From NCBI GenBank assembly GCA_963809215.1, contig CAWEIJ010000002.1, positions 2,019,220 to 2,083,219 on the forward strand: a stretch of DNA of 64,000 nt. Reading direction: 5' to 3'. Below are positions 7,967 to 51,770 of the stretch, in pieces. Source of the stretch: an uncultured Chloroflexia bacterium. Its GTDB lineage: Bacteria > Chloroflexota > Limnocylindria > Limnocylindrales > CSP1-4. Under the pieces are notes generated by a model. The model ran no database searches and was not told the DNA's origin. It saw only the letters and a list, made by a program, of their open reading frames with translations. The stretch's first letter is position 1. Every line of letters begins with the position of its first letter. The translations under genes and the position numbers were made by a program.

Positions 7967-8978
7967 TCAGGCGGGCCGGGGCTGCAGTGCCTCCAGGCCG
8001 CGGAGGATCTTCTCGGGGGTGACCGGCAGATCGTCGATCCGGACGCCCGTGGCGTGATAGATGGCGTTGACGATCGCGGGGATCGGCGAGTTCGCCGTCA
8101 TCTCGCCCAGGCCCTTGACCCCGTACGGCCCGCTCGAGGACGGCATCTCCAGGACGACCGACTTCGATCTCCGGCATCTCCAGGATGCCGGGCACCAGGT
8201 ACTCGCTGAAGTCCCGGGGGCTGTGATCCGCGGCCGGGTAATACGGCGCGGTGGTCTCGTAGAGGGCGTGGGACATGCCCATGAACGCGCCGCCGGTGAT
8301 CTGTCCGGCGACGAGCGCCGGGTTGACCTGGCGGCCGACCTCGTAGGCGCTCCGGATGCTCAGGACCCGGACCTCGCCCGTCTCGGTGTCGACCTCGACC
8401 TCGGCCACGGTGCAGGCGTGCGCCTCCGTGGAGTCGGGATCCATGGCGCCGTTCTCCGGGTCGACCGGGCTCTTCGGCTTCATGTAGCTTCCGCGCCCCG
8501 AGATCGTGCGGCCGTACTTGAACTGCGCCAGCGAGGCGATGTCGGCGACCCGGACCGAGCGCGATGGGGCGCCTCGAACCATGAGGTTCCCGTGCCCGTC
8601 GATCTCGAGGTCCTCGACAGCGGCCTCGAGCTCCTCGGAGGCGACGTCGAGCAGCGCCCGACGGGCCTCGAGGGCGGCCGCGATCACGGCGTTGCCGACA
8701 CGGTGGGTGGCGCGACTCGCGAAGGTCCCCATGTCGTGGGGACCGGTGTCCGTGTCCGCGGTGTCGATCACGATCTCCCCGAAATCGACGCCCAGCGTCT
8801 CCGCCGCGATCTGGCCGATGACCGTCTTGAGCCCCTGCCCGAGGTCCGTGGCGGAGAGCGACACGACGAACGACCCGCTCGTCGTGGCGTGGATCAGCGC
8901 CTGCGACGGGTCGCCGCCGAGGTTCATGCCGGTCGGGTAGTTGACGGCGGCGATCCCCGTTCCGCGCAGCCTCGCCAT
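7967..8978 (-). pseudogene. C-terminal part of a CoxL/XdhA-family molybdopterin-binding large subunit, with an apparent +1 frameshift near 8125-8145. The conserved tail GPYGVKGLGEMTANSPIPAIVNAIYHATGVRIDDLPVTPEKIL is in another frame.
   Basis: ORF 7770..8978 is protein-like through ...YLVPGILEMPEIEV, then degenerates. The conserved C-terminus is recovered by a one-nucleotide shift. The start ATG overlaps the upstream ORF stop (TGATG), so this may be a separate subunit or the result of another indel. Confidence 0.6.
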
Positions 8979-10330
8979 CAGTCGCGCCCTCCGTCATGGC
9001 CGGCGACGCGGGGTGCCGACGTCATCGCCCGCAGGTCGTCGGGCAGCTCGTGCCCGACGAGGGCCGCGGCGGCCTGCATCGTCTCGATCAGCGTGGCGTC
9101 CTCCGCGAGCTTCCGGTGTGGCTTCAGGTCGCCGTCGTGGTAGGCGTTGATGAAGCGGATCGTCCAGGGATCCAGGCCGACCCGCTCGGCGATCCTGTCC
9201 ATCTGGACCTCGAGCGCGAAGGAGCCCATCGTCACCCCGAAGCCGCGCATCGCGCTGGTCGGCTGACGGTTCGTGTAGACGCAGTAGGCGTCGATCGACA
9301 CGTTCGGGATCGCGTAGGGTCCGGCGGCGTTTGCCGCGTGCTTCGTCAGCGCGTAGGGCGTCTGGCGGCTGTACGCCCCGGAGTCGGCGTAGCTCGTCAC
9401 CTTGCGGGCGATGATGTGGCCGTCGCGCGAGACGCCGTCCTTGATGTAGATGCGCCAGGCGCTGCGGGTCGACGAGACCTGCATCTCCTCGGAGCGGCTG
9501 TAGGCGAAGCGCACCGGCCGGTTCGTCTTCATCGCCGCGAGCGTGGCGATCGGCTCCACGATGACGTCGACCTTGCCACCGAAGCCGCCCCCCACGGTTC
9601 CCCCCACGAAGTGGAGCCGGTTGCCGGGGACCTGCAGGATGATCGCCGTGTTGTCCAGGCTGAAGTAGAGGGCCTGGGTGTTGGTGTAGACGGTGAAGCG
9701 GCCGTTGGCTTCGGGGACCGCGATGCAGCCGGTCGTCTCCAGCGGGGCTTGCTCGATGGGGCTCGTGTTGTAGACGCCCTCCACGATGTGGTCGGCGCGC
9801 TCGAACGCGGCCTCGACGTCGCCCAGGCGCACCCGCCGGCAGGGATGGCCCTCGTACATGAACGTGTTGTTCCCCCAGCTCGTCACGACCGGGGCACCGG
9901 GAAGGAGCGCCTCCTCGACGTCGAACACCGCGGGCAGCTCCTCCAGGTCGAGGCGGACCTTCGAGACCGCCTCCAGCGCGGCGGCCTCCGTCTCGGCGAC
10001 GATCGCGACGATCGCCTCGCCCCTGAAGCGGACGCGATCCTCGGCGAGCACGTACTCCTCTTCGGGCTCGACGCCGATGAGGCCGAGGATCGTGTACAGG
10101 TTGTGCGGGACGTCCCTGAAGGTCAGGGCCCGGACGAAGCCCGGCACCCGCTCCGCCTCCGACAGGTCGACGCCGTGGATCAGGGCGTGGTGGAGCGGGC
10201 TCCGGACCATCTTGAGATGGAGCATGCCGGGGAACGAGCGGTCGGCGAAGAACTGGGTCCGGCCGGTGACGTGGCCGATCCCGTCGCTGCGTGCGACCGA
10301 CTGGCCGACGACGTTGAGATCGGCGCTCAT
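8978..10330 (-). CDS. N-terminal part (or separate subunit) of a CoxL/XdhA-family molybdopterin-dependent oxidoreductase large subunit
   Basis: Starts MSADLNVVGQSVARSDGIGHVTGRTQFFADR with an ATGA overlap onto the small-subunit stop. Aldehyde oxidase/xanthine dehydrogenase a/b hammerhead and MoCo-binding pattern. Lacks the VAYRCSFR CO-dehydrogenase signature (has AMRGFG). Confidence 0.8.
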   Translation of the reverse strand: MSADLNVVGQSVARSDGIGHVTGRTQFFADRSFPGMLHLKMVRSPLHHALIHGVDLSEAERVPGFVRALTFRDVPHNLYTILGLIGVEPEEEYVLAEDRVRFRGEAIVAIVAETEAAALEAVSKVRLDLEELPAVFDVEEALLPGAPVVTSWGNNTFMYEGHPCRRVRLGDVEAAFERADHIVEGVYNTSPIEQAPLETTGCIAVPEANGRFTVYTNTQALYFSLDNTAIILQVPGNRLHFVGGTVGGGFGGKVDVIVEPIATLAAMKTNRPVRFAYSRSEEMQVSSTRSAWRIYIKDGVSRDGHIIARKVTSYADSGAYSRQTPYALTKHAANAAGPYAIPNVSIDAYCVYTNRQPTSAMRGFGVTMGSFALEVQMDRIAERVGLDPWTIRFINAYHDGDLKPHRKLAEDATLIETMQAAAALVGHELPDDLRAMTSAPRVAGHDGGRD

Positions 10331-10821: not shown

Positions 10822-10822
10822 G

Positions 10823-13150: not shown

Positions 13151-13196
13151 GGCCCCACTCCGCCAGCCGCCGCGCGTCCCCCAGGGAGGCCCCGCC

Positions 13197-21359: not shown

Positions 21360-21441
21360 CGGTACCAGCTGCTTGGAGGAGAGCGCGAGGGACGCCGGTC
21401 CGACCGGCGTCCCTCGCGTGAGCTGCGAATGCGGTAGCTGG

Positions 21442-32768: not shown

Positions 32769-33910
32769 GCGACTTCGGGATCGTGAGCGGGCGCCTCGTC
32801 CTCGACGACCGCGTCGTCGCGGGCCGCGTCGTCGTCGAGGACGGTCGCATCGCGGCGGTCGAACCGGATCCGTCCGTCGAAGGCGGCCCGTGGATCCTGC
32901 CCGGCTTCGTTGACGTCCACGTCCACGGCTGGGGCGGGTACAGCGCGATGGGCCCCGCGCCGTCCCTCGATGGCATGGCGCGCGCGCTCCTGGCGCGCGG
33001 CGTCACGTCGTTCCTGCCGACCGCCGTCACTGCGCCGCTCGACGGGCTGCGGACCTTTGCCGAGACGGTCCGCGGCTGGATGCCCGGCGCCCCGCCGGAT
33101 GGAGCGGCGCCGCTGGGCTTCAACCTCGAGGGGCCGTTCGTCTCGCCCCAGCGCGTGGGCGCCCAGAACCCCGCGTTCGTGCGGGCTCCCGCCGATGTCG
33201 CGCTCGCCGATCTCGAGCCCCTGGTCGACGGCTTCCGGCTCACGACGATCGCGCCGGAGGCGCCCGGCGCGGTCGACCTGATCCGCTGGCTCGCCGCGCG
33301 CGGCGTGGTGGCGTCGCTCGGCCACTCCGTGGCGACGGCCGCCGAGGCGCACGCGGGCTACGACGCCGGCGCGCGGACGACCACGCACGTGTTCAACGCG
33401 ATGTCGGGGATCCACCAGCACACGCCCGGCCTCGCGGCGGTGGCGCTCTCGCGGGACGATGTCTACACCGAGCTCATCGCCGACGGCCACCACGTGGATC
33501 GCGAGCTGTGGCCGCTGATCCTGCGCACGAAGCCGGCGGACCGGCTCGTCCTGGTGAGCGACGCGATCGAGCTGGCAGGGACGCCGCTGGAGCGCGGCTC
33601 CCTCGGCGGCCTCGAGGTGCAGGTGCAGGGCGACCGATGCACGCTCGTGTCGAACGGCGCGCTCGCGGGCTCGGTCATCGCCCTCGACACGTCCGTTCGG
33701 AACCTCGCGCGGTTCGGGCTGGAGATGCCGCGGGTCGCCGCGGCGGCGAGCGCCAACCCGCTGGCGCTGATCGGGGTCACCGATCGCGGACGGATCGCCG
33801 CCGGCCTCCTGGCGGACCTGGTGGAGCTCGACGCGGCCTTCGTCGTGCAACGGGTCATGCGCGCGGGACGGTGGTTCGAGGGCCCCGGGGCCGCAGCACC
33901 CCGCGCGTGA
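32765..33910 (+). CDS. nagA: N-acetylglucosamine-6-phosphate deacetylase (amidohydrolase superfamily)
   Basis: FVDVHVHG and HxFNAMSG-type motifs characteristic of NagA. Confidence 0.8.
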   Translation: MSDFGIVSGRLVLDDRVVAGRVVVEDGRIAAVEPDPSVEGGPWILPGFVDVHVHGWGGYSAMGPAPSLDGMARALLARGVTSFLPTAVTAPLDGLRTFAETVRGWMPGAPPDGAAPLGFNLEGPFVSPQRVGAQNPAFVRAPADVALADLEPLVDGFRLTTIAPEAPGAVDLIRWLAARGVVASLGHSVATAAEAHAGYDAGARTTTHVFNAMSGIHQHTPGLAAVALSRDDVYTELIADGHHVDRELWPLILRTKPADRLVLVSDAIELAGTPLERGSLGGLEVQVQGDRCTLVSNGALAGSVIALDTSVRNLARFGLEMPRVAAAASANPLALIGVTDRGRIAAGLLADLVELDAAFVVQRVMRAGRWFEGPGAAAPRA

Positions 33911-33952
33911 GTCGCGTCAGCGCGGCCTGACGTCGCGAAGGGCAGCCCGGGC

Positions 33953-33985
33953 CGGCACCGCGACGAGGATCGCCCGCCGCGGTGC
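33953..33985. terminator. GC hairpin (GGCACCGCG-N15-CGCGGTGCC) between the convergent nagA and giant-protein genes; bidirectional terminator candidate
   Basis: 9-bp perfect inverted repeat read directly. Confidence 0.35.
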
Positions 33986-34001
33986 CGTCATGACCCCCCG
34001 T

Positions 34002-37000: not shown

Positions 37001-37343
37001 TGACGTCGGCGGTTCCCGGGTTGTCGAGGCGGATCGCCCCGGCGTCATAGCAGGTGGTGAGGGTTCCGCATGCCGTCTGGCCCGGGACGGTGCCGCCCAG
37101 GAAGGTCGTGTTCGGAGCGCCGACCCAGGGAACCGGGAAGGCCGCCGGGTTCGGGTTGTTCGTCTCCTTGTCCTCGGCGTAGCCGACGGAGACGTTGAGG
37201 CCGCCTGCGCTCGAACCGGCGGCGATGGTCGCTCCGAGCAGGCCCTGGGGCGCGACGGCGACCGACGATCCGAACGCGGTCGCCGTCGCGAACACCAGGG
37301 CAAGGCCCGAGCGGACCCCCCGCTTCCAGCTCGATGCCTTCAT
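34002..37343 (-). CDS. giant secreted repeat protein (~1113 aa): signal peptide, Big_1-like Ig domain, lectin-like ~150-aa domain, 5 Ig-like 103-aa repeats, C-terminal lectin-like domain
   Basis: Start MKASSWKRGVRSGLALVFATATAFGSSVAVA with GGGGGG SD. Internal near-identical repeats. It is the lower part of ORF 34002..38720. Confidence 0.75.
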   Translation of the reverse strand: MKASSWKRGVRSGLALVFATATAFGSSVAVAPQGLLGATIAAGSSAGGLNVSVGYAEDKETNNPNPAAFPVPWVGAPNTTFLGGTVPGQTACGTLTTCYDAGAIRLDNPGTADVTVSSVSADIHSSVPGGKAFSLWGSFTVPAGKSVILTENPPTNNPGSDNFDTSGYPGNICTPVTVAPTVTITIAGVPTTLVDSTHVLDTGGIDRGYCGQNESIQWRAIGAAGSDTATLTLGPASASQPVGGQVTETALLQDGGGAVVPNVTVGFTIIVGPNAGVTGSAVTDATGHASFTYGSSVSGTDIVVASVTTVGSFRSNQASVTWGTSTNGWTGVDIGSPPVAGSDSLSNGTWTISGSGRDIGGTADQLHLVWQPLAADGGANARVLTQTNTNSRARAGVMLRQSTDAGAPFYALVVTPGAGLFVLQRPTTNANVVTIANIAGTVPAYVSVLRSGSIVTAYTSPDGVSWTPVAGSSQVLGVSGTVLAGMAVTSHSTTALGTATFGSVSLPTAAPPPPNNFTVTAKPSSLSVAAGAAGQTTIGTGLISGSAESITLSATGLPAGVTAAFSPASVTTGGSSTLTFSVGAAVPAASYSITVTGTSASATHSVTVKLTVTSSSPPPNNFSMSASPSSVSVVQGAAGGSTISTALVSGSAESISLAASGLPAGVTAGFSPASVTAGAGSALTLTVGSGVTPGTYPLTVTGTAPSATHTTSVSLTVTAPVTNDFSMSASPSSVSVVQGAAGGSTISTALVSGSAESISLAASGLPAGVTAGFSPASVTAGAGSALTLTVGSGVTPGTYPLTVTGTAPSATHTTSVSLTVTAPVTNDFSMSASPSSVSVVQGAAGGSTISTALVSGSAESISLAASGLPAGVTAGFSPASVTAGAGSALTLTVGSGVTPGTYPLTVTGTAPSATHTTSVSLTVTASTGGGLPSPWTDADIGSPAVAGSATYAGGVFTVSGSGADIYGTYDQFHYVYQPVSGNGTLIARVTSQTNTGSSNSKAGLIWKASTSSGSPYFLIAVNNSGVVKVQWKFSSSVQASTTYAFPNVWMKMVRSGSSFTAFLSSDGVAWTQVASTSLATIPTAATLGLEECSHVNTKLGTATFDNVSFTPGP
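34600..35530. repeat. 3 tandem, essentially identical 309-bp coding repeats (Ig-like domain units). The same unit recurs at ~38000-38620 in the neighbouring gene.
   Basis: Opposite-strand ORFs at 34642, 34960 and 35260 translate to identical 102-aa peptides; the period is 309 bp. Confidence 0.85.
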
Positions 37344-37399
37344 GACGTGAGCCCCCCGTGTGTTGCGGATGGTGTGGGACGCGTGGCCTGACGTCCCTG

Positions 37400-40300
37400 T
37401 CAGGGCTGGGTGATGGTGACGGTGTCGAAGGTGGCGCTGCCGAGGACGTTCGCGTTGTGGCTCGTGACGGCCATCCCGGCGAGGACGGTCGTGGGCATGG
37501 CGGTGATGGTCTGGGACGTGCCCGCGATGAACGTGAAGGTGACGCCGTCGGAGCTCGTGTAGGCGCTGAAGGTGTTGCCCGAGCGGGCGATCCGCAGGTA
37601 GAGCGGCGGGACGCCGGCGACCTTCGTGGCCTGGGAGGTGGTGCCGCCCTGGGTCGTCCGCCACTGGGTGGCGACGCCCTTGGTGGTGGTCATGAGGACG
37701 GCGTAGTAGGGCGCGGCCGGGTCGCTGCTCGCGCGCAACATGATGCCGGCCTTGGCGCTCGACGAGGTGTTGGTCTGCGAGGTGATCCGGACCGTCAGGG
37801 TCGAGTTGCCGGTCAGGGCTCTGGGAGACGAAGTTGAACTGGTCCGAGGCGTTGAAGATGTCGGCCCCTGAGCCGCTGACGGTGAACACGCCGCCGGCGT
37901 AGGTCGCCGAGCCCGCGACCGCGGGAGACCCGATGTCGGCGTCGGTCCAGGGCGACGGCAGGCCGCCACCCGTGCTGGCCGTGACGGTCAGGCTGACGCT
38001 GGTCGTGTGGGTGGCCGAGGTCGCCGTGCCGGTGACCGTCAGGGGGTAGGTCCCGGGCGTGACGCCCGAGCCCACGGTGAGGGTCAGGGCCGAGCCTGCG
38101 CCGGCCGTGACGCTCGCCGGGCTGAAGCCGGCCGTCACCCCCGCCGGCAGGCCCGAGGCCGCCAGGCTGATGCTCTCGGCGCTGCCCGAGACGAGGGCGG
38201 TGCTGATGGTGCTGCCGCCGGCGGCACCCTGGACGACCGAGACGCTCGAGGGGCTGGCGCTCATCGAGAAGTTGTTGGGCGGCGGAGCCGTGACGGTCAG
38301 GCTGACGCTGGTCGTGTGGGTGGCCGAGGGCGCCGTGCCGGTGACCGTCAGCGGGTAGGTGCCGGGCGTGACGCCCGAGCCCACGGTGAGGGTCAGGGCC
38401 GAGCCTGCGCCGGCGGTGACGCTCGCCGGGCTGAAGCCGGCCGTCACCCCCGCCGGCAGGCCCGAGGCCGCCAGGCTGATGCTCTCGGCGCTGCCCGAGA
38501 CGAGGGCGGTGCTGATGGTGCTGCCGCCGGCGGCACCCTGCACGACCGAGACGCTCGAGGGGCTGGCGCTCATCGAGAAGTCGTTGGGCGGCGGGGAGCT
38601 GCCCGGCACGCTGACGTTGTCGAAGGTCGCCGTGCCGAGCGCGCTCGTCTTGTGCGATGTCACGGCTAGGCCCGCGAGCATCGCCCCGGTCACCCCCGGG
38701 CTCGCGCTCGAGCCGGGCACGGCCGTCCAGGTGGCGCCGTCGCTCGAGGTGAACGCCGTGAACTTCGTGCCCGATCGCGTGATCCTGGAGGTAGATCGGG
38801 AGCGTGGCCGCGACCTTCGAGCTCTGCGAGGTCGTGACCCCCTGGCTGTTGCGCCACTGGACGACGACGCCGCTTCCGGGCGTGTAGAGCGCTGAATAGT
38901 AGGGAGAGCCCGGGTCGGTGGTCGCGCGCATCATCACGCCCGACTTGGCCGAGGAGCTCGTGTTCGTCTGGGTGACGAGCCGGGCGCTCACGTGCCGTCC
39001 GAGCTCGTCGAGACGGATGCGAAGTTGAACTGGTCGCTCGTGCCGTAGATGTCGGCGCCGGCGCCGATGACCGTGAAGGTGGGGCTCGTGTAGCCGCCCG
39101 ATCCGGTGATCGCGGGCGCGCCGATGTCCTGGTCGGTCCAGCCGGTGGGCAGGGGTCCGAGCGGCGGGGTCGTCGACGCCCACGACCTGGACGTGATCGA
39201 ACGCGACGGTGCTGTACTGGCCGATGTTGTGGGCCGTGTCGAAGAGCCCGATCGTGACCGGGCCCGTCATGGCCAGCGTGACGACGCCGATCTGCGTCCA
39301 GTTGACGCCGTCCGCGGAGATCGACGAGACGAACGTGTTGCCCGACCGCTGCAGCTGCACCCACTTGTTCGGCGAGGCGAAGCCGGTCGGGTAGGTCTTT
39401 GGTGTCACCCCGCCCGGGCCCGTGTACTGCATGCGCGCGCCGTTGCCCATCGCCGGCGTCACGGGCGGCAGCGGGCTGATGCAGCCGTTCGCGTCGCAGG
39501 CCACGCCGTTGATGTTCGGCGTGTTCGGGCTGACGTCGGGCGCCACGAGCGCGTCGACGAAGGCCGTGCCGGCCGCCGTGGACTGCGCGACCATGACGCC
39601 GGCCTTCGCCCAGGAGCTCGAGTTCGACTGGTAGCGGACCCGGGCGGTGATCGTCCCGTCGCCGGTCAGGGCCTGGTAGACGTAGTGGAACTGCTCGTTG
39701 GCGCCGTAGACATCCGAGCCCGAGCCGTCGACGTAGAACGTCCCGCTGCTCGCCGCGTAGTCGGCCGCGCCGACGGTGATCGGGGCGCCGACGTCGACGC
39801 TCTGCCACGACGAGGGCATCGTCGATGTCACCGGCTCGTAGTTGGCCGTGTAGGACCCCGGACCGGACCCGGCGGTGAACGTGTCGGTGAGCGTGCTGCC
39901 GTCCGCGAAGCCGGCGAACCGGTACCGGCTCCCGCCGATCGCCTGGACGAGCGGCATCCCGGCGATCACGTGCTGGACGCCGACGACGTCGGTCGTGCTG
40001 AAGGGGCCCGTGACCCACTGGCCGTCGATCGCGTAGCCCGCCCCGGCCACGTTCGCGCTCGCCGTCCAGGTGGTGGTGTTGGGATGGAGATCCTGGGTCA
40101 CGACGGTCTGGAGGCCGAGCGAGTCGGTGACGGTCAGCGTGATCCGATAGAAGCTCGTCGGCGTCTGGGACGGGTCCGTCGGGACCTGGAAGCTGCCGGA
40201 GGTGACGCCCGTCACGGGTCCGTAGAACGGGGATGCCACCTCGGCGGAGAAGGACGGCTGCGCAACGCCGTTGGCGTAGAAGTCGACCTTCCAGGAGTAG

Positions 40301-42285
40301 GCGCTCGGCGGCTCGGCGCCGTCGACCGCGTCCGTCGCGGTCCCGCTGAAGGCGACGGCCTGCCCGGCGTTGTAGGTCGCCGGCGCGCTGATCGCCACGA
40401 TGGGAGGCGAGGCCCCCACGGTGACCTGGGTGGTCGCCGTCCCCACCTGTGACCCGTTGCTCACCGTGAGCGTGGCGGTGTAGGTCCCGGCGCTCGCATA
40501 CGTGTGCGACGGGTTGGCAGCCGTCGAGAGCCCCGAGCCGTCACCGAAGTTCCAGGAGTAGCTGAGCGGCAGCCCGTAGGGGTCGGTCGAGCCGGCCGAC
40601 GAGAACTGGACCGGTAGCGGTGCCGGCCCCGCGTTCGGCGTCGCCGACGCCGTGGCAGTCGGGGCGAACGGCCCCGGAGCGGAGATCCGGTAGATCGAGC
40701 CGCTGAAGATGCTCGCGTAGTAGAGGTTCCCGTCGGGCCCCTCCTCCAGGTCCGCGATGGTCCCGACGGCGCTGTCGAAGACGGTGTCGGAGACGACGGT
40801 CCGGTACGTCGGGTCGAACGTCACCGCGTCGATCGACAGCTGGTTGTAGTCGCCGACGAAGACGACGTTGGCGTACTGCCGAGGGAACGTCGTCCCCGTG
40901 TAGGCCGCCACGGCCGAGGCCGCGCCGTCGACCGGGTAGTGGCCGTAGGCGTAGACCGGATTGATGCCGCCGCAGCTCCCGCAGTTGCCCTCGACGAAGT
41001 CCCAGCCGTAGTTGCCCCCGGGCTGGATCGTGTCGAGCTCCTCCCAGTAGCTCGAGCCCGTGTCCTCCGTCATCGGCTGGCCCGTCGGCAGGAACGACCA
41101 GCGGAACGGGTTGCGCAGCCCGTAGGCATAGATGTACGGGATTGCGTTGGGCACGTTCAGGAACGGGTTGTCGCTCGGGACCGACCCGTCGAGGTTGAAG
41201 CGCAGCATCTTGCCGTAGATGTTCGTGAGGGTCTGCGCGTTCGTGATCGACGGGACGTTGTCGCCGACGCTCCACCAGAGCTTGCCGTCGGGCCCGATCT
41301 TCACCGTCTGGCCGGGGTGGTGCCCGTTCTGGATCTGGTTGCCCTGGTAGTAGACCTTCTCGGTCGTGAGGTCGATCGCGTTGTTCACGACCGTGAACCG
41401 GGACAGCCTCGTGTACGGCTGCGTCCCGGAGCTGTTCGTGACGTTGACGACGTACGAGATGTACACGTAGCCGTTCGTCGCGAAGTTCGGGTCGAGCGCG
41501 AGGCCCAGCAGGCCGCACTCCGTGTTGTAGAAGACGTTGGGGAGCGTCACGAGGGGGGTCGGGAGGACGGCGCCGTTGCGGTAGATCAGGATGACCCCGG
41601 TCTGCTCGCCGACATAGATGTCGCCGTTGGGGGCGAAGGCGAGGAGGATGGGCTTCGTCAGCGATCCGGCGAGCTTCGTCTGCGTGAAGCCGGGCGGAAG
41701 GACCTGGTTGATCGGGGTCGTGACCGTCGCCGACGCGCTGAACGGCGTCGACGACTCGGTCCCGGTGACCGTGGCCGTGTTGGAGAGCGATCCGCCCGCC
41801 GCGGCCGTGACCTGGCCGGTGATCGTGACCGACCAGGACCCCCCGGCGGAGAGCGTCGCTGCGCTGCACGTGACGGTCGGGCTGGCGAAGCTGCAGCTGC
41901 CGGTGCTCGCGGTCATCCACGGCGACGACGGGAAGCTGCCGATGCCGAGGCCGACGAGCGTGTCGGTCAGGCTCAGGCCCGACGCTGCCGCGCCGCCCGT
42001 GTTCGCCACGGTGATCGTGTAGGCGAGCGCCTGGCCGCTGCTGACCGGGTTGGGGGAGGACGTGACGGCGATGGAGACTGCCGGGCCGACGGCCAGGGCC
42101 GGGCTGGTCACGGCGGCGGTCGCCCCGACCAGGGCAAGGATCGCGACCGCGCGCAGCGCGATCCTGCGGACCGGGCCGCGGTGGCCCCGTGCCCGCCCGG
42201 GCGCGCGCCGCGCGTCCGCCCGGCCGCCGTCGTCCCGCCGCCGAAGCAGCGTCATGAGACTCCTGCGGGATCGCCTGGCTTCCAT
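37400..42285 (-). pseudogene. giant secreted protein (~1630 aa if repaired): signal peptide, DUF11 conserved-repeat domain, PQQ-dependent soluble glucose/sorbosone dehydrogenase (GSDH) beta-propeller, 2 PKD domains, lectin-like ~150-aa domains and Ig-like repeats. Reading frame broken by at least 4 single-nt indels (~39165, ~38990, ~38785, ~37820).
   Basis: Protein-like segments are distributed over three frames (ORFs 37813..42423, 34002..38720 upper part, 37400..37969). Each junction is restored by a one-nt shift. RBS GGAGG upstream of the ATG at 42285. Confidence 0.7.
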
Positions 42286-42301
42286 CCTGAACCTCCAACC
42301 A

Positions 42302-42328
42302 GATGAATGGGATGAATTGGATGAGTGC
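42302..42328. repeat. 3 x 9-bp tandem repeat GATGAATGG / GATGAATTG / GATGAGTGC in the 85-bp intergenic spacer immediately upstream of the RBS of the 37400-42285 gene
   Basis: Direct reading; AT-richer than surrounding sequence. Confidence 0.5.
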
Positions 42329-42370
42329 GGCGGGTGGATCAAGGTGCGCGCGCCTCCGGGTTCGGGCGGC

Positions 42371-45300
42371 TCAGGGGCCGGGGACGAGGCCAACGGTGTC
42401 GAACGTGGCGGCGCAGAGCGCACCGGTGTTATGGGACGTCACGGCCATCCCGGCGAGGACGGCGGTGGGCAGGGCGATCGTCTGGGAGCTGCCCGGGACG
42501 AGCGTCCAGTTGACGCCGTCGGTGCTCGTGTAGGCAGTGAACGTGTTGACCAGGCGCGCGATGCGCAGGTAGAGCGGCGGGACGCCGGCGACCTTCGACG
42601 TCTGCGAGGTGGATCCCCCCTGGGCCGTGCGCCACTGGACCACGACGCCCTTGGTCGTGGTCATGAGGATCGCGTAATACGGCGAGCCCGAGGCACTCGA
42701 GGCTCGGAACATCAGGCCTGCCTTTGCGCTCGGATTGGTGTTCGTCTGGCTGGCCACGCGGGCGCTGAGGGTCCCGTTGCCGGTGAGGGCCTGGCTGACG
42801 AAGTTGAACTGGTCGGCGGTGGCGTAGATGTCGGCCCCGGCCCCGTTGACCGTGAAGACGCCGGCGCTGTACGTGGCCGAGCCGGCGAGGGCAGGAGCCC
42901 CGATGTCGGCGTCGGTCCAGGGCACCGGCAGCGGCGGCGGGGGCGCGGTGACCGTCAGGCTGACCGTGGTCGCGTGGGTCGCCGAGGGGGCGGTCCCGGT
43001 GACGGTCAGGGGATACGTCCCGGTGGGGACGCTGGCGGCGACGGCGAGGCCGAGCGTCGCGCTGCCGCCGGCGCTGACCGAGGTCGGGGTCAGGGTGGCG
43101 GTCACGCCCGCCGGCAGGCCGCTGACCGCGAGGGCGACCGTCTCGGCGCTGCCCGAGATGAGGGCGGTGGTGATGCTCGTCCCGCCCGAGGCGCCCTGGG
43201 CGATCGAGAGGCTCGACGGGCCCGCGGCGATCGAGAAGTCGTTGGGGGTGACCGTGGACAGCCCGACGTTGTCGAAGGTGGCGGCCCCGAGGGCGGTCGC
43301 GGTGTGACACGTGACGGCCAGCCCGGCGAGGACGGCGGCGGGCATGGCGATGGTCAGGCTCGAGCCGGGCACCGCCGTCCAGCTGACCCCGTCGGGGCTG
43401 GTGTAGGCAGTGAAGGTGCTGGCCGAGCGGACGATGCGCAGGTAGACCGGGACGGTGCCCGCGATCTTGACCTGGCCGGTGGTGCCGCCCTGGGCCGTGC
43501 GCCACTGGACGGCGACGCCGTTGGCCGGGGTGGCGAAGACCGCGTAGTTGGGCGCCCCGGGATCGCTCGTGGCGCGCAGCATGAGCCCGGCCTTGGCCCA
43601 GGCGTTCGAGTTGGCCTGGCTGGCCACGCGGGCGCTGAGGGTCCCGTTGCCGGTGAGGGCCTGGCTGACGAAGTTGAACTGGTCGGCGGTGGCGTAGATG
43701 TCGGCCCCGGCCCCGTTGACCGTGAAGACGCCGGCGCTGTACGTGGCCGAGCCGGCGAGGGCAGGAGCCCCGATGTCGGCGTCGGTCCAGGGCACCGGCA
43801 GCGGCGGCGGCGGCGCGGTGACCGTCAGGCTGACCGTGGTCGCGTGGGTCGCCGAGGGGGCGGTCCCGGTGACGGTCAGGGGATACGTCCCGGTGGGGAC
43901 GCTGGCGGCGACGGCGAGGCCGAGCGTCGCGCTGCCGCCGGCGCTGACCGAGGTCGGGGTCAGGGTGGCGGTCACGCCCGCCGGCAGGCCGCTGACCGCG
44001 AGGGCGACCGTCTCGGCGCTGCCCGAGATGAGGGCGGTGGTGATGCTCGTCCCGCCCGAGGCGCCCTGGGCGATCGAGAGGCTCGCCGGGCCCGCGGCGA
44101 TCGAGAAGTCGTTGGGCGTGACCGTCGAGAGGGCGACGCTGTCGAAGGTGGCGGCCCCGAGGGCGGTCGCGTTGTGGGACGTGACGGCCAGCCCGGCGAG
44201 GATGGCGGCGGGCATGCTGATGGTCAGGCTCGAGCCGGGCACCGCGGTCCAGCTGACGTTGTCGGGGCTGGTGTAGGCAGTGAAGGTGCTGGCCGAGCGG
44301 ACGATGCGCAGGTAGACCGGGACGGTGCCCGCGATCTTGACCTGGCCGGTGGTGCCGCCCTGGGCCGTGCGCCACTGGACGGCGACGCCGTTGGCCGGGG
44401 TGGCGAAGACCGCGTAGTTGGGCGCCCCGGGATCGCTCGTGGCGCGCAGCATGAGCCCGGCCTTGGCCCAGGCGTTCGAGTTGGCCTGGCTGGCCACGCG
44501 GGCCGTGAGGGTCCCGTTGCCGGTGAGGGCCTGGCTGACGAAGTTGAACTGGTCGGCGGTGGCGTAGATGTCGGCCCCGGCCCCGTTGACGCTGAAGACG
44601 CCGGCGCTGTACGTGGCCGAGCCGGCGAGGGCAGGAGCCCCGATGTCGGCGTCGGTCCAGGGCACCGGCAGCGGCGGCGGCGGCGCGGTGACCGTCAGGC
44701 TGACCGTGGTCGCGTGGGTCGCCGAGGGGGCGGTCCCGGTGACGGTCAGGGGATACGTCCCGGTGGGGACGCTGGCGGCGACGGCGAGGCCGAGCGTCGC
44801 GCTGCCGCCGGCGCTGACCGAGGTCGGGGTCAGGGTGGCGGTCACGCCCGCCGGCAAGCCGCTGACCGCGAGGGCGACCGTCTGGGCGCTGCCCGAGATG
44901 AGGGTCGTGGTGATGCTCGTCCCGCCCGAGGCGCCCTGGGCGATCGAGAGGCTCGCCGGGCCCGCGGCGATCGAGAAGTTGTTGGGCGTGACCGTCGAGA
45001 GGGCGACGCTGTCGAAGGTGGCGGCCCCGAGGGCGGTCGCGTTGTGGGAGGTGACGGCCAGCCCGGCGAGGATGGCGGCGGGCATGCTGATGGCCTGGCT
45101 CGAGCCGGGCACCGCGGTCCAGCTGACGTTGTCGGGGCTCGTGTAGGCAGTGAAGGTGCTGGCCGAGCGGACGATGCGCAGGTAGACCGGGACGGTGCCC
45201 ACGATCTTGACCTGGCCGGTGGTGCCGCCCTGGGCCGTGCGCCACTGGACGGCGACGCCGTTGGCCGGGGTGGCGAAGACCGCGTAGTTGGGCGCCCCGG

Positions 45301-48300
45301 GATCGCTCGTGGCGCGCAGCATGAGCCCGGCCTTGGCCCAGGCGTTCGAGTTGGCCTGGCTGGCCACGCGGGCCGTGAAGGTCCCGTTGCCGGTGAGGGC
45401 CTGGCTGACGAAGTTGAACTGGTCGGCGGTGGCGTAGATGTCGGCCCCGGCCCCGTTGACGCTGAAGACGCCGGCGCTGTACGTGGCCGAGCCGGCGAGG
45501 GCAGGAGCCCCGATGTCGGCGTCGGTCCAGGGCCACGGGACGGGCGAGATCGACACGCTGTCGAACGTCGCCGAGCCGAGGGTCCCCCACGTGTGCGAGG
45601 TCACGGCGAGGCCGGCGAGGACGGGCCCGCTCAGGCCGACGCTCGACGGCGGAGCCCGGCACCGGCGTCCACGAGATCCCGTCCGGCGAGGTGTACGCCG
45701 TCGCTGTCCCGGCCGACATCGAGACGGCGAGATGGACCGGCGGTCCGCCCGCGGCCACGAGCTGCGAGCTGGCGCCGGCGAGCGTCGTCCTCCACTGGAT
45801 CGCGATCCCGTTGCCGGGCGTGACGAACACCGCGTAGTAGGGCGAGCCGGGGTCGATGCTCGACCTGAGCATCACGCCGGCCTTCGCCCACGCTGACGTG
45901 TTGGTCTGCGAGATCGCCCGCGCGACGATCGACCCGTCCGTCGGGAGCGTCTGCCAGGCGAAGTGGAACGCGTCGGCCGTCGACCAGATGTCCCCGCCGC
46001 CGCCCTGGACCGTCCAGGTCCCGGCGGTGAGCGATTGCGCGCCGGTGACGCCCGTCGAGCCGATGTCGGCGCAGGTCCAGCCCGTCGGGCATGCCCCCGG
46101 CGGCGGCCCGGCGTTGCCGAGCGTGACGGTGTCGAAGGTCACCGTGCTGAGCTGGCTCGTGTTGTGGGACGTGACGGCGAGGCCCGCGAGGATCGTCCCG
46201 GTCAGGCCGAGGCTCACGCTCGCGTTGGGAATGGGGGTCCAGTTGAGCCCGTCGCTCGACGTGTACGCCGTGAACGTGCCGTTCGACTGCGCCACCTCGA
46301 GCCACGCGGGGGCGACGCCCGGCGTCGTCACCTGCGAGGACGCCCCACCCTGCGTCGTCCGCCACTGGACCGCGATCCCGTTCGAGGGCGTCACGAACGC
46401 GGCGAAGTAGGGCGAGCCCGGGTCGGACGTCGCCCGCATCATCAGGCCCGCCTTCGCCCAGGAGCTCGTGTTCGTCTGGGTGTCGAGACGGGCGCTGAGC
46501 GCACCGTTGCCGGTCAGCGGCTCGCTCAGGAAGCGGAAGCTGTCGGACGTTCCCCAGATGTCGCCGCCGCCGCCCTGGACGGTCCAGCTGCTGCCAGTGA
46601 CGTACTGCGCTCCGCCCGGGACCGGGAAGCCGATGTCCCCGCAGGTCCAGCCGGTCGGGCAGAGGCTTGGCGGGGGCGCCGCGGACGCCGTGGCGGACAC
46701 GGTGTCCATCGTGTCGGTGGCGAGGGTCGACGCGGAGCCGGAGCTGACCGCCAGGCCGCCGACGACGCCGGTCGTCGGGCCGAACGTCACGCTCGAGCCG
46801 ATGATCGGCGACCACGCGACCCCGTCGGGAGAGGTGAACGCGGTGTACGTCGTCTGCGAGCGGGTGATCTCCAGGTACTGCGGCGGCGTGCCCGCGATGC
46901 TCACCAGCGGCGTCACCCGCATACCTGCCGCGCTTCGGTAGAGGACCTGGACCCCGTTTGCCGGCGTCACGAAGACGCCGTAGGAGAGCGCGCCCGGAGT
47001 CGTCGCGTCGGCCCGGAACTCGAGGCCGGCCTGCGCGCCCGCCGTGTTCTGCTGGGCAGTGACGTGGGCGACGAGCGTCGCGTCACCGGAGAAGGCCTGG
47101 TAGACGTAGTGCAGCTGGTCGGCGTAGCCAGCGTTCCCGATCCCCGCTCCGGAAAGCGACCAGACCCCGCTGCTGAGCGACTGGTTGCCGACCGCTCGCC
47201 GGGTTGCCGATGTCGGTGCACGTCCAGCCGCCGGGACATGGCGATGACGACGGCGGCGGGTTCGGCGGCGCGCCGGGCGGGCCGATCGCGACCGTGTCCA
47301 CGGTCGAGGCCGTGGCCGTTCCGTTCGTGCCGGACGCCGCGGCCAGGCCGACCATCGCCGTGGTCGGCACGACGACGCTCGCCGTGCTGCCGGCGACGAG
47401 CGTGAACGTGGAACCGTCGGGCGACGTCGCCGCCCCGAGCGTGTCCCCGACCCGCTGGATCTCCAGGTAGAACGGCAGCGCGGGCGCGGTGACCTGCACG
47501 CTCTTGACGGCCCCCAGGAAGGCCGTCCGGTACTTCGCGGAGACGGTGCCGGCGCCGTTGTACGTGACGGCGTAGAACGGCGAGCCCGGATCGTTCGCCT
47601 GCCGGACCATGAGCCCGGTCTGCGTTGCGCTCCCCGGTGTGGCCCGTCACCCGGGCCGTGATCTGCGCGTCGCCGGAGACGGCCTGGCTCATGAGACGGA
47701 GCTGGTCGGTCCCGCCGGCGAGACCGAGGCCGGCGCCGCCCGCGGCGATCGACCACGACCCGGCGCGGACGGTCTCGCTGCCCGCGGGCGCGGGGCTGCC
47801 GACGTCCTGGCACGTCCAGCCGGTCGGGCAGCTGGCGTCGACCGGCGGCGTCGTCGGCGTGACGGGGGCGAACGCGAAGACGGTCCCGTCACCGGAGCCC
47901 ATGTAGACCGTGCCGTTCGAGACGCTCGGCGGCGAGTACGTCACTGCGCCCGTCTGGTAGCTCGAGAGGACGTTCCCGGTGGCGGCGTCGAGCACCTCGA
48001 GGTACTTCCCGGCCCCGGCGAAGACCATCCCGTTGTCGTACGCGAGGGCGGGAATGACGGGACTGGCCAGCCCGCGGGCCCAGACGACGTTGCCCGTGCC
48101 GGGGTCGACGGCCCGGACGGCTCCCGGATAGCCGACCCCGTTGATCGTCGTGTTCCCGCCCGCGGCGTAGAGGAGGCCCTGGGCGAACGCCATCGAGGAG
48201 ACGCTGCCGTCCCCGCACGTCGGGCAGATGCCGCTGACGGCCACCTGGTCGTACCAGACCGGCCCCGCGGCGATGTTCGAGCGAAGGAACGCGTAAAGAA

Positions 48301-49381
48301 AGCCGTTCTTGTTGATCCCGGCGACCAGCGCACGCCCGGTCGAGTCGGTGAACAGGATCGGCGAATCCCCCCAGTCGGAATCCGCGTTCATCGTGCTCTG
48401 CGGGATCTGCCACGAGCTCAGGATGGAGAGCGAGGTGGCGTCCAGGGCGACCATCGCCTCCGAGTACGCCTGGGTGCTCTGGTTGAGCGTGCCCGTGGTG
48501 ACGTAGACGATGTTCGTCGCCGGATCGATCGACGGGGTCGTCCAGACGCCGCCGCCGACCTGGCCGCCTGGCACGAGGCTGGCCGTCGCCATCACCGCGT
48601 GGGTCGTCAGGTCGACGCGCAGGAGCTGGCCCTGGACGAGCGGGCAGTCCCCCAGGCTTGCAACGCCGATATACACGGAGTTGCCGTAGATGAGCGGGCT
48701 GGCCCAGTTGTAGTAGCCGTTCGCCGGGTTGCCGATCGGGATCGACCAGAGGACCTGGCCGGTCGCGGCGCTGAGCGCGTACCAGTTGCCGTCGCCCCCG
48801 CCGACGTAGACCGTGCCGTTGGAGACGTTCGCGGTGGACGACACGCCGAGCGCCGGCGGGGAGCACTGGGGCGCGGTCGTCGTGCCGATGAACGTCTTCC
48901 AGATAAGCGCGCCCGTGGACGCGTTGAGCGCGTACTCGTAGCCATCCCACGAGCCCACGTAGGCCACGCCGCCCACGATCGTGGGCGAGGCGGCGATGAC
49001 GCCGCCCGTCTTGTACGTCCAGAGCGGCCGCAGGTTCGGCGCGCCGGCGGCCGAGAGGATCGTCTCGGAGCTCGCGGCCGTGAGCTGCGGGTTCTGCAGG
49101 TACATCGGCCAGTCGACCGCGGGCGACGCCGCGAGCGCCGTCGCCGGAGCTCCGAGCTGCGCGCCCAGGGCGGCGTTGAGCACCAGGACGAGCGCCCCGG
49201 CGACCTTCCAGGCCGCCCTCCGTCGTCCCGTTCCCGCACGCAGACGCGCGCGGTGCGCTCGGATGCCCGTGCCGACTGGCACGCCCACGTTTCGCCGCCC
49301 TCGATCGATTGCATCGGGCGCTGCCGATGGAGCTCCGGATCCGACGGCTGCGCCGCTCGCCGGATCGAAGGGGATAGGCAT
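42371..49381 (-). pseudogene. giant secreted protein (~2330 aa if repaired): signal peptide, PQQ-repeat beta-propeller, multiple CPTGWTCxDIG-prefixed lectin-like ~150-aa domains, 3.3 x 290-aa (Ig-like plus lectin-like) near-identical repeats. Frame broken by at least 3 single-nt indels (~47635, ~47205, ~45648).
   Basis: Protein-like segments lie in ORFs 46967..49549, 47083..47610, 42429..47813 (upper part) and 42371..45604. Junctions are restored by one-nt shifts. Confidence 0.7.
42800..45500. repeat. ~3.1 tandem copies of a near-identical 870-bp coding repeat
   Basis: Opposite-strand ORFs at 42828, 43698, 44568 and 45438 are near-identical and spaced exactly 870 bp. Confidence 0.85.
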
Positions 49382-49996
49382 CGTGGCGCTGGCGCGCCGA
49401 AGCCCCCCAATGCCGCGTGGTCCTGATCGGACCGAGAATGATTGCCTGGCAACGAGGTGGACCATTCGAATGAATGGGACGCTGGCCCGCCATCGCCGCC
49501 GTCGCGGAGTATCGCGCCGACGCAATCGCGCGTCAAGACCGCGTGTCAAGGGTCCAATTGACCCTTTTCAGATGACCCGTGGACTCGTCCCTTCGAGGTC
49601 GCGATGACCGGTCGGTGAGGGCTCCGCGGCGCGCGCGGCCACCGGGAATCCGCCGCACGGGCCGTCCGTACTGGGCCATCCTGCGCCCCGGACGGGCACA
49701 AGACGGCCCCGGACGCCACCGGAGCGCACCGTCGCCCTGACGTGTGGCGGGCCGCCCTAGGAACATCGTGCGGGTTGGCGCCGGCCCAGCGGCTGCCCAA
49801 AGTCTGGTCTTGAAAGCGTCCCGCCACGGGTTGCTCTCGGGTCGCACCAGGTCCTCTGCGTCGAGGTTCTCTCACCTGCCGGGCGGCCATCGAACGGGAG
49901 ACGACGTCAATGTTCTCGAACGTAACCGGTCGGACGGTCGCGCCCGCCGTCCCGGGTCCCGCCGGGCGACGGCCGGCCTTCCAGCGGCCCCGCGGC

Positions 49997-51770
49997 ATGG
50001 CGACGGCGGTTGTCGTGGTAGCCGCCCTGGTTTCCTGGAGCGCCGGCGCGGTGCCGGGACTCGCTGCGACCAACACGAAGCAGGCCGCGACGCTCGCCCA
50101 GGCCGGGGCCTGCCCGACGGGCTGGACGTGCGCCGACATCGGGGCACCGAAGGTCGCGGGCGGCACGAGCCTGGCCGGCGGCGCCTTCACGCTCACCGCG
50201 TCGGGCGCGGACATCTTCGCGTCGTCGGACCAGTTCCAGCTCGCATGGCAGTCGCTCCCGGGTGACGGGTCGATCATCGCGCGGATCACCTCCCAGGCGA
50301 ACACGTCGGTGAGCGCCAAGGCGGGGATCATGCTGCGAGCGTCGACGGATCCCGGATCCCCGTACTACGCCGTCCTCATGACCACCACCAAGGGCGTCGC
50401 GACCCAGTGGCGCAAGACGGCAGGCGCGACCACGTCGCAGGCAACCAAGGTTCCCGGCGTTCCCGCGCGCTGGCTTCGGATCACGCGAAGCGGCAACACC
50501 TTCACCGCGTACACGGGCGCAGACGGCGTGGCGTGGACCCCCGTGGCAGGCTCGGCACAGACGTTCGCCCTCCCGACCGTCGCGCTCGCCGGCCTGGCCG
50601 TCACCAGCCACAACGGCGGCGTTCTCGGCACGGCCACCTTCGACAACGTGACATCGTCCGCCACGCCGACACCGCCGCCGACGCCAGCGCCGACATCCAC
50701 ACCGACGCCGGCCCCAACCGCGACGCCGACGCCGACGCCGACGCCGACCGCCACGCCCAAGCCGACGCCGACGCCCACTCCCGCCCCCACGACGTCGCCG
50801 ACGCCCGCACCGATCGGTTCGTCGCAGTTCGTCGGGCGGAGCGGCACGACGCTGACGCTCGGCGGCGCGCCGTACGTCTTCACTGGCTTCAACATCTACA
50901 ACGCGAACAGTCGCTCGAACTGCGGCGCGACGGCCGGCACGGGCAGCTACCTCGACACGGCCCTCGGCGACATCGGGTCGGCCCACCCCGTCATCCGCGC
51001 GTGGTTCTTCCAGAGCCTGGCGACCAGCAACGGGGTGCGCGACTGGTCCGCCTTCGATCACACCCTCGCGATCGCTGCGGCGCACGGCGTCAAGGTCATC
51101 GCCACCCTTGGCAACCAGTGGACGTCGTGCGAGACCGGCGGCTACAAGTGGGACAGCTGGTACACGGGCGGGTACAGGACCGTCCGTCGATCCCGGCAAC
51201 GTCACGACCTATCGCCAGTGGGTCAGCGACGTGGTCGCCCGCTACAAGGACAACCCGACGATCGCGTTCTGGCAGCTCATCAACGAGTCGGAGATCAAGG
51301 CCGACAACTCCTCGAGCTGTGGCCCGGCGGCGGATCTCTACAACTTCGCGGCTGACGTCTCAGCCCTGGTCCACTCGATCGATGCCAACCACCTCGTCTC
51401 GCTCGGTGAGATGGGCGGCGGCCAGTGCGGCATGCAGGGCTCCGACTACCAGAAGATCCATTCGATCCCGACGATCGACCTCTGCGAGTTCCACGACTAC
51501 GGCCATCCCACCACTGCGCTGCCGACGAACTTCGCGAATGATCTCGCCGCCTGCAGGGCGGACGGCAAGCCGCTCTACATCGGCGAGGCCGGGATCCAGG
51601 TCACCGACGTCGGTAGCACCAGCCTCCGGGCAACGGACCTCTGGAACAAGTGGTCCGCCCAGATGGCGGCGGGCGCCGCGGGGTTCCTGGTCTGGTCCTG
51701 GAATAACAGCCCCGACGGCACGACCTACCAGGTCGGCCCGGGCGATCCGCTCATGAGCATGGCCTGGTAA
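49997..51770 (+). pseudogene. secreted glycoside hydrolase family 5 (clan GH-A, mannanase/cellulase-like) with N-terminal lectin-like ~150-aa domain and Pro/Thr linker; single +1 frameshift near 51176-51182
   Basis: Signal peptide MATAVVVVAALVSWSAGA, then CPTGWTCADIG and the D-domain, then (TP)n linker. Catalytic motifs WQLINESE (acid/base NE) and LYIGEAG (nucleophile). The two halves are in ORFs 49910..51355 and 51108..51770. Confidence 0.75.

What the first reader, a model, noticed from the sequence alone, without database searches (positions are those of the whole stretch)
7967..51770. Cluster of single-nucleotide frame disruptions, insertion-biased, concentrated in the repeat-rich genes
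At least ten coding genes need a one-nucleotide correction to restore conserved protein sequence. They fall in the CoxL-like gene (~8135, and possibly at 8978) and in gene 37400-42285 (~39165 in a GGGG run, ~38990, ~38785, ~37820). They also fall in gene 42371-49381 (~47635 in a CCCC run, ~47205, ~45648) and in the GH5 gene (~51178). Nine of the ten are apparent +1 insertions, often in short G/C runs. About 30 other genes in the window are intact. Either these paralogous surface-protein genes are decaying or phase-variable pseudogenes, or the consensus is error-prone in repeats. An insertion-dominated profile is typical of unpolished long-read data. The distinction matters for every functional inference in the island.
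Basis: seen in the sequence. Interest (0 to 1): 0.6.

Follow-up and report, generated by a model that had tools for sequence, protein, structure and literature searches.

The report
Spurious frameshifts from assembly consensus errors
Ten single-base frame breaks in five genes of this uncultured soil bacterium's contig are real in the sequence but are most likely leftover assembly errors, not dying or switchable genes, so the affected genes should be read in their repaired form.

Summary
Refined positions are 8162, 39166, 38990, 38784, 37816, 47632, 47196, 45645 and 51183. One edit per site gives stop-free ORFs of 336, 1627, about 2335 and 619 aa. Site 8978 is not a lesion. It is a natural 450+336 aa gene split conserved in all six fetched relatives and over 100 protein clusters.

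Consensus error is the best explanation (about 0.78). At the three sites with orthologues, every relative lacks the extra base. A Logan contig of the window's own haplotype, built from a public run, lacks the 8162 base and encodes an intact protein. Across 21 shared genes, short-read-style contigs have none broken, while long-read-style sister contigs have 1-7 broken. dN/dS does not rise downstream of the lesions.

Eight lesions lie in a 25.8-kb strain-specific island, not in its near-identical repeats. Real decay of island genes remains possible (about 0.18). Phase variation and recoding are not supported.

The parts
7967..8978 (-). C-terminal half (MoCoBD_2) of a split xanthine-dehydrogenase/CoxL-type Mo-binding subunit. 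It is broken by one extra base at 8162 (coding strand GAA[G]TCGG).
   Evidence: Pfam MoCoBD_2 hit. Frame switch. All six relatives lack the base and encode an intact 336 aa. The same-haplotype Logan contig L149 lacks it.
8978..10330 (-). N-terminal half (450 aa) of the same enzyme. The boundary at 8978 is a natural stop/start overlap, not a frameshift.
   Evidence: More than 100 protein clusters at 88-99% identity are 448-452 aa. All six fetched loci have the 450+336 aa genes with a 1-nt overlap.
5603..6404 (-). 266-aa gene downstream of Peptidase_A4. It is broken 23 codons in by one extra base at 6335 (GCGG[C]GGAC).
   Evidence: absent in all six relatives. (absent in Logan contig L150).
37400..42285 (-). 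Gene 2: a 1627-aa secreted multidomain protein (DUF11, GSDH beta-propeller, PKD, three ConA-like/DUF1349 units, two Ig-like 309-nt repeats). Lesions at ~39166 (+1), ~38990 (-1), ~38784 (+1) and ~37816 (+1).
42371..49381 (-). Gene 3: a protein of about 2335 aa (PQQ-type beta-propeller plus eight ConA-like units, including an 870-nt tandem array). Lesions at ~47632, ~47196 and ~45645, all +1.
49910..51770 (+). GH5 glycoside hydrolase with an N-terminal ConA-like domain and a Pro/Thr linker (619 aa when repaired). One extra T at 51183 inside the catalytic domain.
   Evidence: Eight aligned metagenome relatives lack the base. dN/dS is 0.18 downstream versus 0.22 upstream.
33895..59739 (.). 25.8-kb strain-specific island holding 8 of the 10 frameshifts and the TAG. 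In the ~99.5%-identical sister strain it is replaced by 4.35 kb of unrelated DNA.
34002..37391 (-). Gene 1: an intact 1129-aa paralogue. Its 34413-35187 segment is 95-100% identical to 37821-38594 of gene 2.
55727..55729 (-). In-frame TAG stop inside a family-2 glycosyltransferase gene (~55131-56790), reading 'GGWDP*NVTEDADLG'.
   Evidence: The Pfam Glyco_trans_2_3 profile covers positions 3-91 before the stop and 96-191 after it, in the same frame.

Best explanation
The frame breaks are residual single-base consensus errors, mostly spurious extra bases, in a long-read-derived metagenomic contig. They are not biological features. Each error shifts the reading frame, so gene callers split or truncate five otherwise intact genes.

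Shown:
- The breaks exist, and one edit per site restores full-length conserved proteins.
- Wherever a comparison is possible, the extra base is private to this assembly.
- For 8162, an independent assembly of the same haplotype lacks the base.

Inferred:
- The seven lesions in genes 2 and 3, which have no close orthologue, are the same phenomenon.
- The window comes from a long-read assembly without short-read polishing.
- Errors are enriched in the island because it belongs to one of several co-occurring, near-identical haplotypes. It would then have had lower or more heterogeneous read support during polishing.
For: 1. At 8162, 6335 and 51183, all relatives lack the window's extra base and have intact genes: six, six and eight relatives respectively.
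2. Logan contig L149 (run ERR12035936) matches the window's haplotype, with 3 mismatches in 1.5 kb against 22 to the sister strain. It lacks the 8162 base and encodes an uninterrupted C-half down to the natural stop. L150 lacks the 6335 base.
3. Both of those lesions sit 2-5 nt from sites that differ between co-occurring haplotypes (8160 T/C, 6330 A/G). That fits mis-polishing of mixed reads.
4. In the same 21 orthologous genes, the MEGAHIT- and scaffold-type contigs L002-L004 have 0 broken genes. The Flye-style contigs L001, L005 and L006 from one ENA sample have 7, 1 and 4. Most of the broken genes differ between contigs, and where the same gene recurs the break sites differ. The window has 2.
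5. The sister contig carries about 1 private indel per kb, 61% of them insertions, and 15 of 23 insertions do not duplicate a neighbouring base. The window's resolved insertions look the same, with 3 of 4 non-duplicative.
6. There is no decay downstream of the lesions. GH5 dN/dS is 0.18 downstream versus 0.22 upstream. The CoxL C-half gives 0.16-0.18 versus 0.08-0.13. There are no stops in about 4,580 repaired codons.
7. Database 'fused' homologues from long contigs (P0001, P0002, P0004) are themselves frameshifted at other positions in the same gene.
8. The window's source contig is 2.96 Mb and spans near-identical repeat arrays, which fits long reads.
9. The literature reports that Nanopore-only MAGs below about 40x coverage keep frameshifting indels (PMC9262707). 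A large soil MAG catalogue was built with metaFlye and a single round of Medaka (PMC12313526).
Against: 1. No reads were available, and only 8162 could be compared with a same-haplotype sequence. The platform of run ERR12035936 is unknown to me.
2. The 5.7-fold enrichment in a strain-specific accessory island (p = 0.015) is also what genuine decay of dispensable genes would predict.
3. The same island holds an in-frame TAG in a GT2 gene. Indel-type consensus error does not explain a nonsense codon.
4. The 9:1 insertion bias is stronger than in the sister contig (35:22), although the difference is not significant (p = 0.15).
5. Lesions avoid the near-identical repeats where mapping ambiguity should be worst. 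Gene 1 (3.4 kb) and the 3-kb 870-nt array have none.
6. Three of four resolved insertions complete a short perfect tandem (GTCG.GTCG, CCGT.CCGT, and the 3-mer tandem GCG.GCG (equivalently CGG.CGG)), against 14% expected by chance (p = 0.01, post hoc). This could reflect a templated mutational process as easily as basecaller stutter.
Confidence: 0.78

Rival explanations
1. The island lesions are genuine, very recent frameshift mutations. On this view the strain-specific surface-protein and glycan island is being inactivated (accessory-gene decay), while the two core-gene lesions at 8162 and 6335 are assembly errors.
For: Eight of ten frameshifts, plus an in-frame TAG in a GT2 gene, lie in the 25.8-kb island that the ~99.5%-identical sister strain lacks. 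Lesions spare the recently homogenised near-identical repeats, as expected if gene conversion from intact copies erases damage. No same-strain sequence covers any island lesion.
Against: Repair of single bases leaves about 4,580 codons with no stop and no other lesion. dN/dS downstream of the GH5 lesion is as low as upstream. The GH5 extra base does not duplicate a neighbour, as slippage would. The lesions are of the same kind as 8162, which is shown to be absent from the same haplotype. A 9:1 insertion excess runs against the usual bacterial bias towards deletions (general knowledge).
Confidence: 0.18
2. The genes are phase-variable contingency loci switched on and off by slippage in short G/C runs.
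For: Two lesions fall in 4-nt G/C runs (39166, 47632). The genes encode surface-type repeat proteins.
Against: No lesion lies in a tract longer than 4 nt. All 27 runs of 5-6 nt in genes 2 and 3 are unaffected, and there are no long simple-sequence repeats. Three resolved insertions are not run extensions. The lesions also hit a cytoplasmic Mo-enzyme subunit and a GH5 catalytic domain.
Confidence: 0.02
3. The breaks are programmed ribosomal frameshift or other recoding sites.
For: No specific evidence beyond the existence of the frame changes.
Against: Orthologues are in frame at all three comparable sites. There is no shared motif at the ten sites. The zero frame stays open for tens to hundreds of codons past the sites, so there is no stop-codon pause. 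As many as four shifts occur in one gene.
Confidence: 0.01

Closest known systems
Indel-induced spurious frameshifts in long-read (Nanopore or PacBio) assemblies and MAGs, the problem measured by the IDEEL test
   Same: Single-base indels fragment otherwise conserved genes. They are private to one assembly. Their density differs between contigs of one sample. They are absent from short-read contigs of the same lineage. PMC9262707 states that consensus indels cause frameshift errors and that bins below about 40x coverage need polishing.
   Different: The classic description places the errors in homopolymers. Here most lesions are outside runs or in runs of 2-4 nt, they are 90% insertions, and they are enriched in a strain-specific island. 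This points to low or mixed-haplotype support rather than homopolymer miscalling.
Genuine pseudogenes in flexible genomic islands
   Same: Lesions are concentrated in strain-specific accessory genes for surface and glycan functions. One neighbouring gene has a nonsense codon.
   Different: There is no secondary degradation, no relaxed selection, and no shared lesions with relatives. The one lesion testable against the same haplotype is absent there.
Contingency loci (phase variation by simple-sequence slippage)
   Same: On/off frame changes in genes for exposed repeat proteins.
   Different: No long mononucleotide or multimer tract lies at any lesion.
Split large subunits of xanthine dehydrogenase / CO-dehydrogenase family molybdoenzymes
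   Same: The 8978 junction separates the hammerhead and MoCoBD_1 domains from MoCoBD_2, with overlapping stop and start codons. The junction is conserved across the clade.
   Different: This is a fixed ancestral gene fission, not part of the lesion cluster. More distant homologues (P0003, P0007) are fused.

Membership tests
Assembly consensus indel artefact | The indel is absent from an independent assembly or reads of the same strain. | tested here: met
   Met for 8162 only. Logan contig L149 has the window's haplotype and lacks the base. The island sites could not be tested.
Assembly consensus indel artefact | The indel is private to the assembly, and orthologues are in frame. | tested here: met
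   Sites 8162, 6335 and 51183 were compared with 6, 6 and 8 relatives. Genes 2 and 3 have no close orthologue.
Assembly consensus indel artefact | A single-base repair restores a full-length conserved ORF with no other lesion. | tested here: met
Assembly consensus indel artefact | The same kind of lesion occurs at other sites in other long-read contigs of the lineage, and none occurs in short-read contigs. | tested here: met
   0, 0 and 0 broken genes versus 7, 1 and 4 out of 21. Frameshifted database homologues.
Assembly consensus indel artefact | The source assembly was made from long reads without short-read polishing. | not testable with these tools
   Only indirect evidence: a 2.96-Mb contig that spans near-identical repeats. 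The source record is not exposed.
Genuine frameshift pseudogene | The lesion is supported by independent sequence of the same strain. | tested here: not met
   Not met for 8162. The broken 402-aa product was not found on any other contig, which is uninformative. Island sites were not testable.
Genuine frameshift pseudogene | Relaxed selection or additional degenerative lesions are present. | tested here: not met
   dN/dS downstream is about the same as upstream. No stops in the repaired ORFs. One TAG in the neighbouring GT2 gene leaves the island as a whole inconclusive.
Phase-variable contingency locus | The frame change lies in a long homopolymer or multi-copy simple-sequence repeat. | tested here: not met
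   The longest run at any lesion is 4 nt. Runs of 5-6 nt are untouched. No long simple-sequence repeats.
Programmed ribosomal frameshift | The shift site is conserved in orthologues. | tested here: not met
   Orthologues are in frame.
Programmed ribosomal frameshift | A slippery motif with a stimulatory element is present. | tested here: inconclusive
   No common motif by inspection of the ten contexts. RNA structure was not examined.
Natural split of XDH/CoxL-type large subunit (site 8978) | The same boundary and two separate ORFs are found in relatives. | tested here: met

The most novel reading that the evidence does not exclude
The island lesions are real. On this reading, an uncultured high-G+C soil bacterium has been caught in the act of inactivating a strain-specific island of giant ConA-like repeat surface proteins, a GH5 and a GT2. 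The process would be unusually insertion-biased and would add single bases that complete short quasi-repeats.
Probability: 0.12. Interest if true: 0.35.

Novelty: not a real feature. Interest (0 to 1): 0.12.

Why it matters
The value is practical. Gene calls in this 64-kb window, and probably across the whole 2.96-Mb contig, include truncated and chimeric proteins. One example is the 773-aa database entry P0121, which carries a frameshifted tail. Any functional reading of the island should use the repaired ORFs of 1627, about 2335 and 619 aa.

The work also corrects two possible mis-annotations. The 8978 boundary is a genuine gene split. Several 'fused' database homologues are themselves frameshift artefacts.

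It also shows a usable check that needs no access to the reads. Exact-protein look-ups of small neighbouring genes can retrieve independently assembled short contigs that span a suspect site.

Tried and rejected
It gave neither an orthologue nor the organism's name.
- I concatenated the two island-flanking proteins into one query for the last homology search. It returned only distant, long hits, so that search was wasted.
- Exact look-ups found nothing, which is uninformative, for P0121, the NagA-like gene, the broken 402-aa CoxL product, the 221-aa island gene and the luciferase-like gene.
- I could not link ERR12035936 or ERZ25039489 to a platform or study, because no supplements are held for the paper.
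- Pfam DUF1349 matches to single repeat units were below threshold. I relied on the paralogue alignment instead.
- My first GH5 dN/dS run used a wrong frame and was discarded (redone).
- I considered that the lesions mark recombination or mis-assembly junctions and rejected it. The 95-100% identity tract shared by genes 1 and 2 ends about 35 nt from lesion 37816, not at it. No tRNA, Rfam element or long flanking repeat marks the island borders.
- I considered homopolymer-driven error or slippage as the general cause and rejected it.
Full report
WHAT IS IN THE SEQUENCE

The window is 70-75% G+C, so open reading frames appear in every frame. I therefore called coding frames from third-position G+C, using a frame plot and a seven-state Viterbi pass. 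Three-frame translation shows conserved peptide continuing in the new frame at nine sites.

Phase arithmetic and nucleotide contexts give these lesions:

| Site | Type | Context |
|---|---|---|
| 8162 | +1 | coding strand GAA[G]TCGG |
| ~39166 | +1 | GGGG run |
| ~38990 | -1 | GGCACG-TGAGC |
| ~38784 | +1 | |
| ~37816 | +1 | |
| ~47632 | +1 | CCCC run |
| ~47196 | +1 | |
| ~45645 | +1 | |
| 51183 | +1 | ACCG[T]CCGTC |

One edit per site yields ORFs without any internal stop: 336, 1627, 2304-2335 and 619 aa. Pfam domains are split across frames before repair, and the GH5 match lengthens across the break afterwards. The repaired ConA-like (DUF1349-type) units of genes 2 and 3 align end to end with intact units from gene 1, from GH5 and from the undamaged parts of gene 3.

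SITE 8978 IS NOT A LESION

I searched with a repaired, concatenated CoxL-type protein. It returned more than 100 clusters at 88-99% identity that are 448-452 aa long and contain only the N-terminal domains. All six loci I fetched carry a 450-aa gene and a 336-aa gene overlapping by one base, exactly as in the window. Truly fused forms occur only in more distant homologues (P0003, P0007). Three 'fused' entries from long contigs (P0001, P0002, P0004) turn out to be frameshifted themselves, at other positions.

I used 21 intact proteins from a short-read-style relative (L003) as tblastn probes against the window, and built a seven-way alignment. This showed a further window-private +1 insertion at 6335 (GCGG[C]GGAC), 23 codons into the gene downstream of Peptidase_A4. 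It also showed a private intergenic insertion at 5589.

Pfam scans of all remaining genes found full-length domains everywhere except in one family-2 glycosyltransferase. That gene is interrupted by an in-frame TAG at 55727-55729, reading 'GGWDP*NVTEDADLG'. In total 38 of 44 genes are intact.

COMPARISON WITH RELATIVES

L001 and L147 are two stretches of one 270-kb ENA contig with a Flye-style name. They match the window at about 99.5% over most of the shared DNA, with one block of 6-10% divergence at 18-22.5 kb.

Polarising indels with five outgroups shows that this sister contig carries about 22 private indels in 20 kb and breaks 7 of 21 genes. The window carries three private insertions. 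Two other Flye-style contigs from the same sample break 1 and 4 of the 21 genes. Most of the broken genes differ between contigs, and where the same gene recurs the break sites differ. Three short-read-style contigs (a MEGAHIT k141 contig and two METAG scaffolds) break none.

At 8162 and 6335, all six relatives lack the window's extra base. At 51183, all eight aligned JGI relatives lack it. These include L087, which is 89% identical in protein and syntenic with window 47748-52048.

THE CLOSEST THING TO A READ-LEVEL TEST

I looked up the exact products of small intact genes next to the lesions. This retrieved two contigs that Logan had assembled independently from public run ERR12035936.

- L149 spans window 8924-7418. 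It has 3 mismatches to the window and 22 to the sister strain, so it is the window's own haplotype. It lacks the extra base at 8162 and encodes the C-half uninterrupted to its natural stop.
- L150 lacks the extra base at 6335, but it is a slightly different haplotype.
- Both lesions lie 2-5 nt from positions that differ between these co-occurring haplotypes (8160, 6330). This suggests the consensus was polished from mixed reads.

SIGNATURE OF THE LESIONS

None of the lesions lies in a run longer than 4 nt. The 27 runs of 5-6 nt in genes 2 and 3 are untouched, and there are no long simple-sequence repeats. Three of the four precisely resolved window insertions add a base that differs from both neighbours. 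The same is true for 15 of 23 insertions in the clearly error-laden sister contig.

Genuine +1 mutations are usually duplications within runs (general knowledge). The signature therefore fits consensus error better than slippage, and it rules out classical phase variation.

Selection is not relaxed downstream of the lesions. GH5 dN/dS is 0.18 downstream versus 0.22 upstream. The CoxL C-half gives 0.16-0.18 versus 0.08-0.13.

WHERE THE LESIONS CLUSTER

Window 33895-59739 (25.8 kb) is replaced by 4.35 kb of unrelated DNA in the sister strain. This island holds genes 1-3, GH5, an apiosidase-like gene, the GT2 gene and an EpsH exosortase.

Eight of the ten frameshifts, and the TAG, lie in the island. 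That is a 5.7-fold rate excess over the 36.6 kb of shared core (p = 0.015). The lesions avoid the near-identical repeats: the 309-nt units shared by genes 1 and 2, and the repeat core of the 870-nt array in gene 3. 'Error-prone in repeats' is therefore not the right description.

I infer, without proof, that the island had lower or more heterogeneous read support because only one of several co-occurring haplotypes carries it. Real decay of accessory genes predicts the same enrichment, and the TAG is easier to explain that way. This is why I keep that rival at about 0.18.

COMPARISON WITH WHAT IS KNOWN

The pattern matches the well-described problem of frameshifting indels in long-read assemblies. 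PMC9262707 reports that Nanopore consensus indels cause frameshift errors in gene calling, and that bins below about 40-fold coverage need short-read polishing. PMC12313526 describes a Nanopore-only soil MAG catalogue built with metaFlye and one round of Medaka, in which lower-coverage MAGs showed Nanopore-associated errors. Its contig naming matches the sister contigs. Any link between that study and the window is only an inference.

The pattern differs from the textbook case in three ways. The lesions are mostly outside homopolymers, they are strongly insertion-biased (9:1, p = 0.02), and they are enriched in the island.

VERDICT

The frameshifts are most probably not a biological feature (confidence 0.78). 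Reads are needed to settle the eight island sites and the TAG.

Noticed in passing
window 55727-55729 (GT2 gene ~55131-56790, minus strand): An in-frame TAG stop splits a family-2 glycosyltransferase domain, reading 'GGWDP*NVTEDADLG'. The Pfam profile covers positions 3-91 before the stop and 96-191 after it, in the same frame. It is a nonsense lesion, not an indel, and it lies inside the strain-specific island.
   Followed up: partly
The one at 6335 breaks a 266-aa gene 23 codons from its start. All six relatives and Logan contig L150 lack it.
   Followed up: yes
window 33895-59739: A 25.8-kb strain-specific island holds three giant ConA-like repeat proteins, GH5, an apiosidase-like gene, GT2 and an EpsH exosortase. 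The ~99.5%-identical sister strain (L147 12080-16432) has 4.35 kb of unrelated DNA in its place. No tRNA, Rfam element or long direct repeat marks the borders.
   Followed up: partly
window ~18000-22500: Across the ABC-transporter genes, divergence from the sister strain jumps from about 0.5% to 6-10%. This looks like a recombined segment.
   Followed up: no
window 34413-35187 vs 37821-38594; 42608-45517: A 775-nt stretch, including 309-nt Ig-like tandem units, is 95-100% identical between intact gene 1 and broken gene 2. That suggests recent gene conversion or duplication. Gene 3 contains four 870-nt tandem units. None of these repeats carries a lesion.
   Followed up: partly
window 8978 and proteins P0001, P0002, P0004: The CoxL-type large subunit is naturally split into 450 and 336 aa, with a TGATG stop/start overlap, throughout this clade. 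Several database 'fused' homologues from long contigs are frameshift artefacts that read through the junction or garble the C-terminus.
   Followed up: yes
window 8162, 6335, 51183: Each resolved insertion turns an imperfect short repeat into a perfect tandem: GTCG.GTCG, the 3-mer tandem GCG.GCG (equivalently CGG.CGG), and CCGT.CCGT. That is 3 of 4 resolved insertions, against 14% expected by chance (p about 0.01, post hoc, tiny n). The sister contig's insertions show no such excess (4 of 23). Unexplained.
   Followed up: partly
window 8160 and 6330; loci L149, L150, L148: Logan contigs from run ERR12035936 reveal at least three co-occurring haplotypes within about 1% of the window. Lesions 8162 and 6335 each lie 2-5 nt from a site that is polymorphic among them.
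   Followed up: partly
L087 (JGI Ga0182010_10009805) vs window 47748-52048: A related species (85.5% nucleotide identity) shares the synteny of the gene-3 N-terminus, GH5 and the next gene, with GH5 intact. So this part of the island is not unique to the window's strain. The contig ends 116 nt short of lesion 47632.
   Followed up: partly
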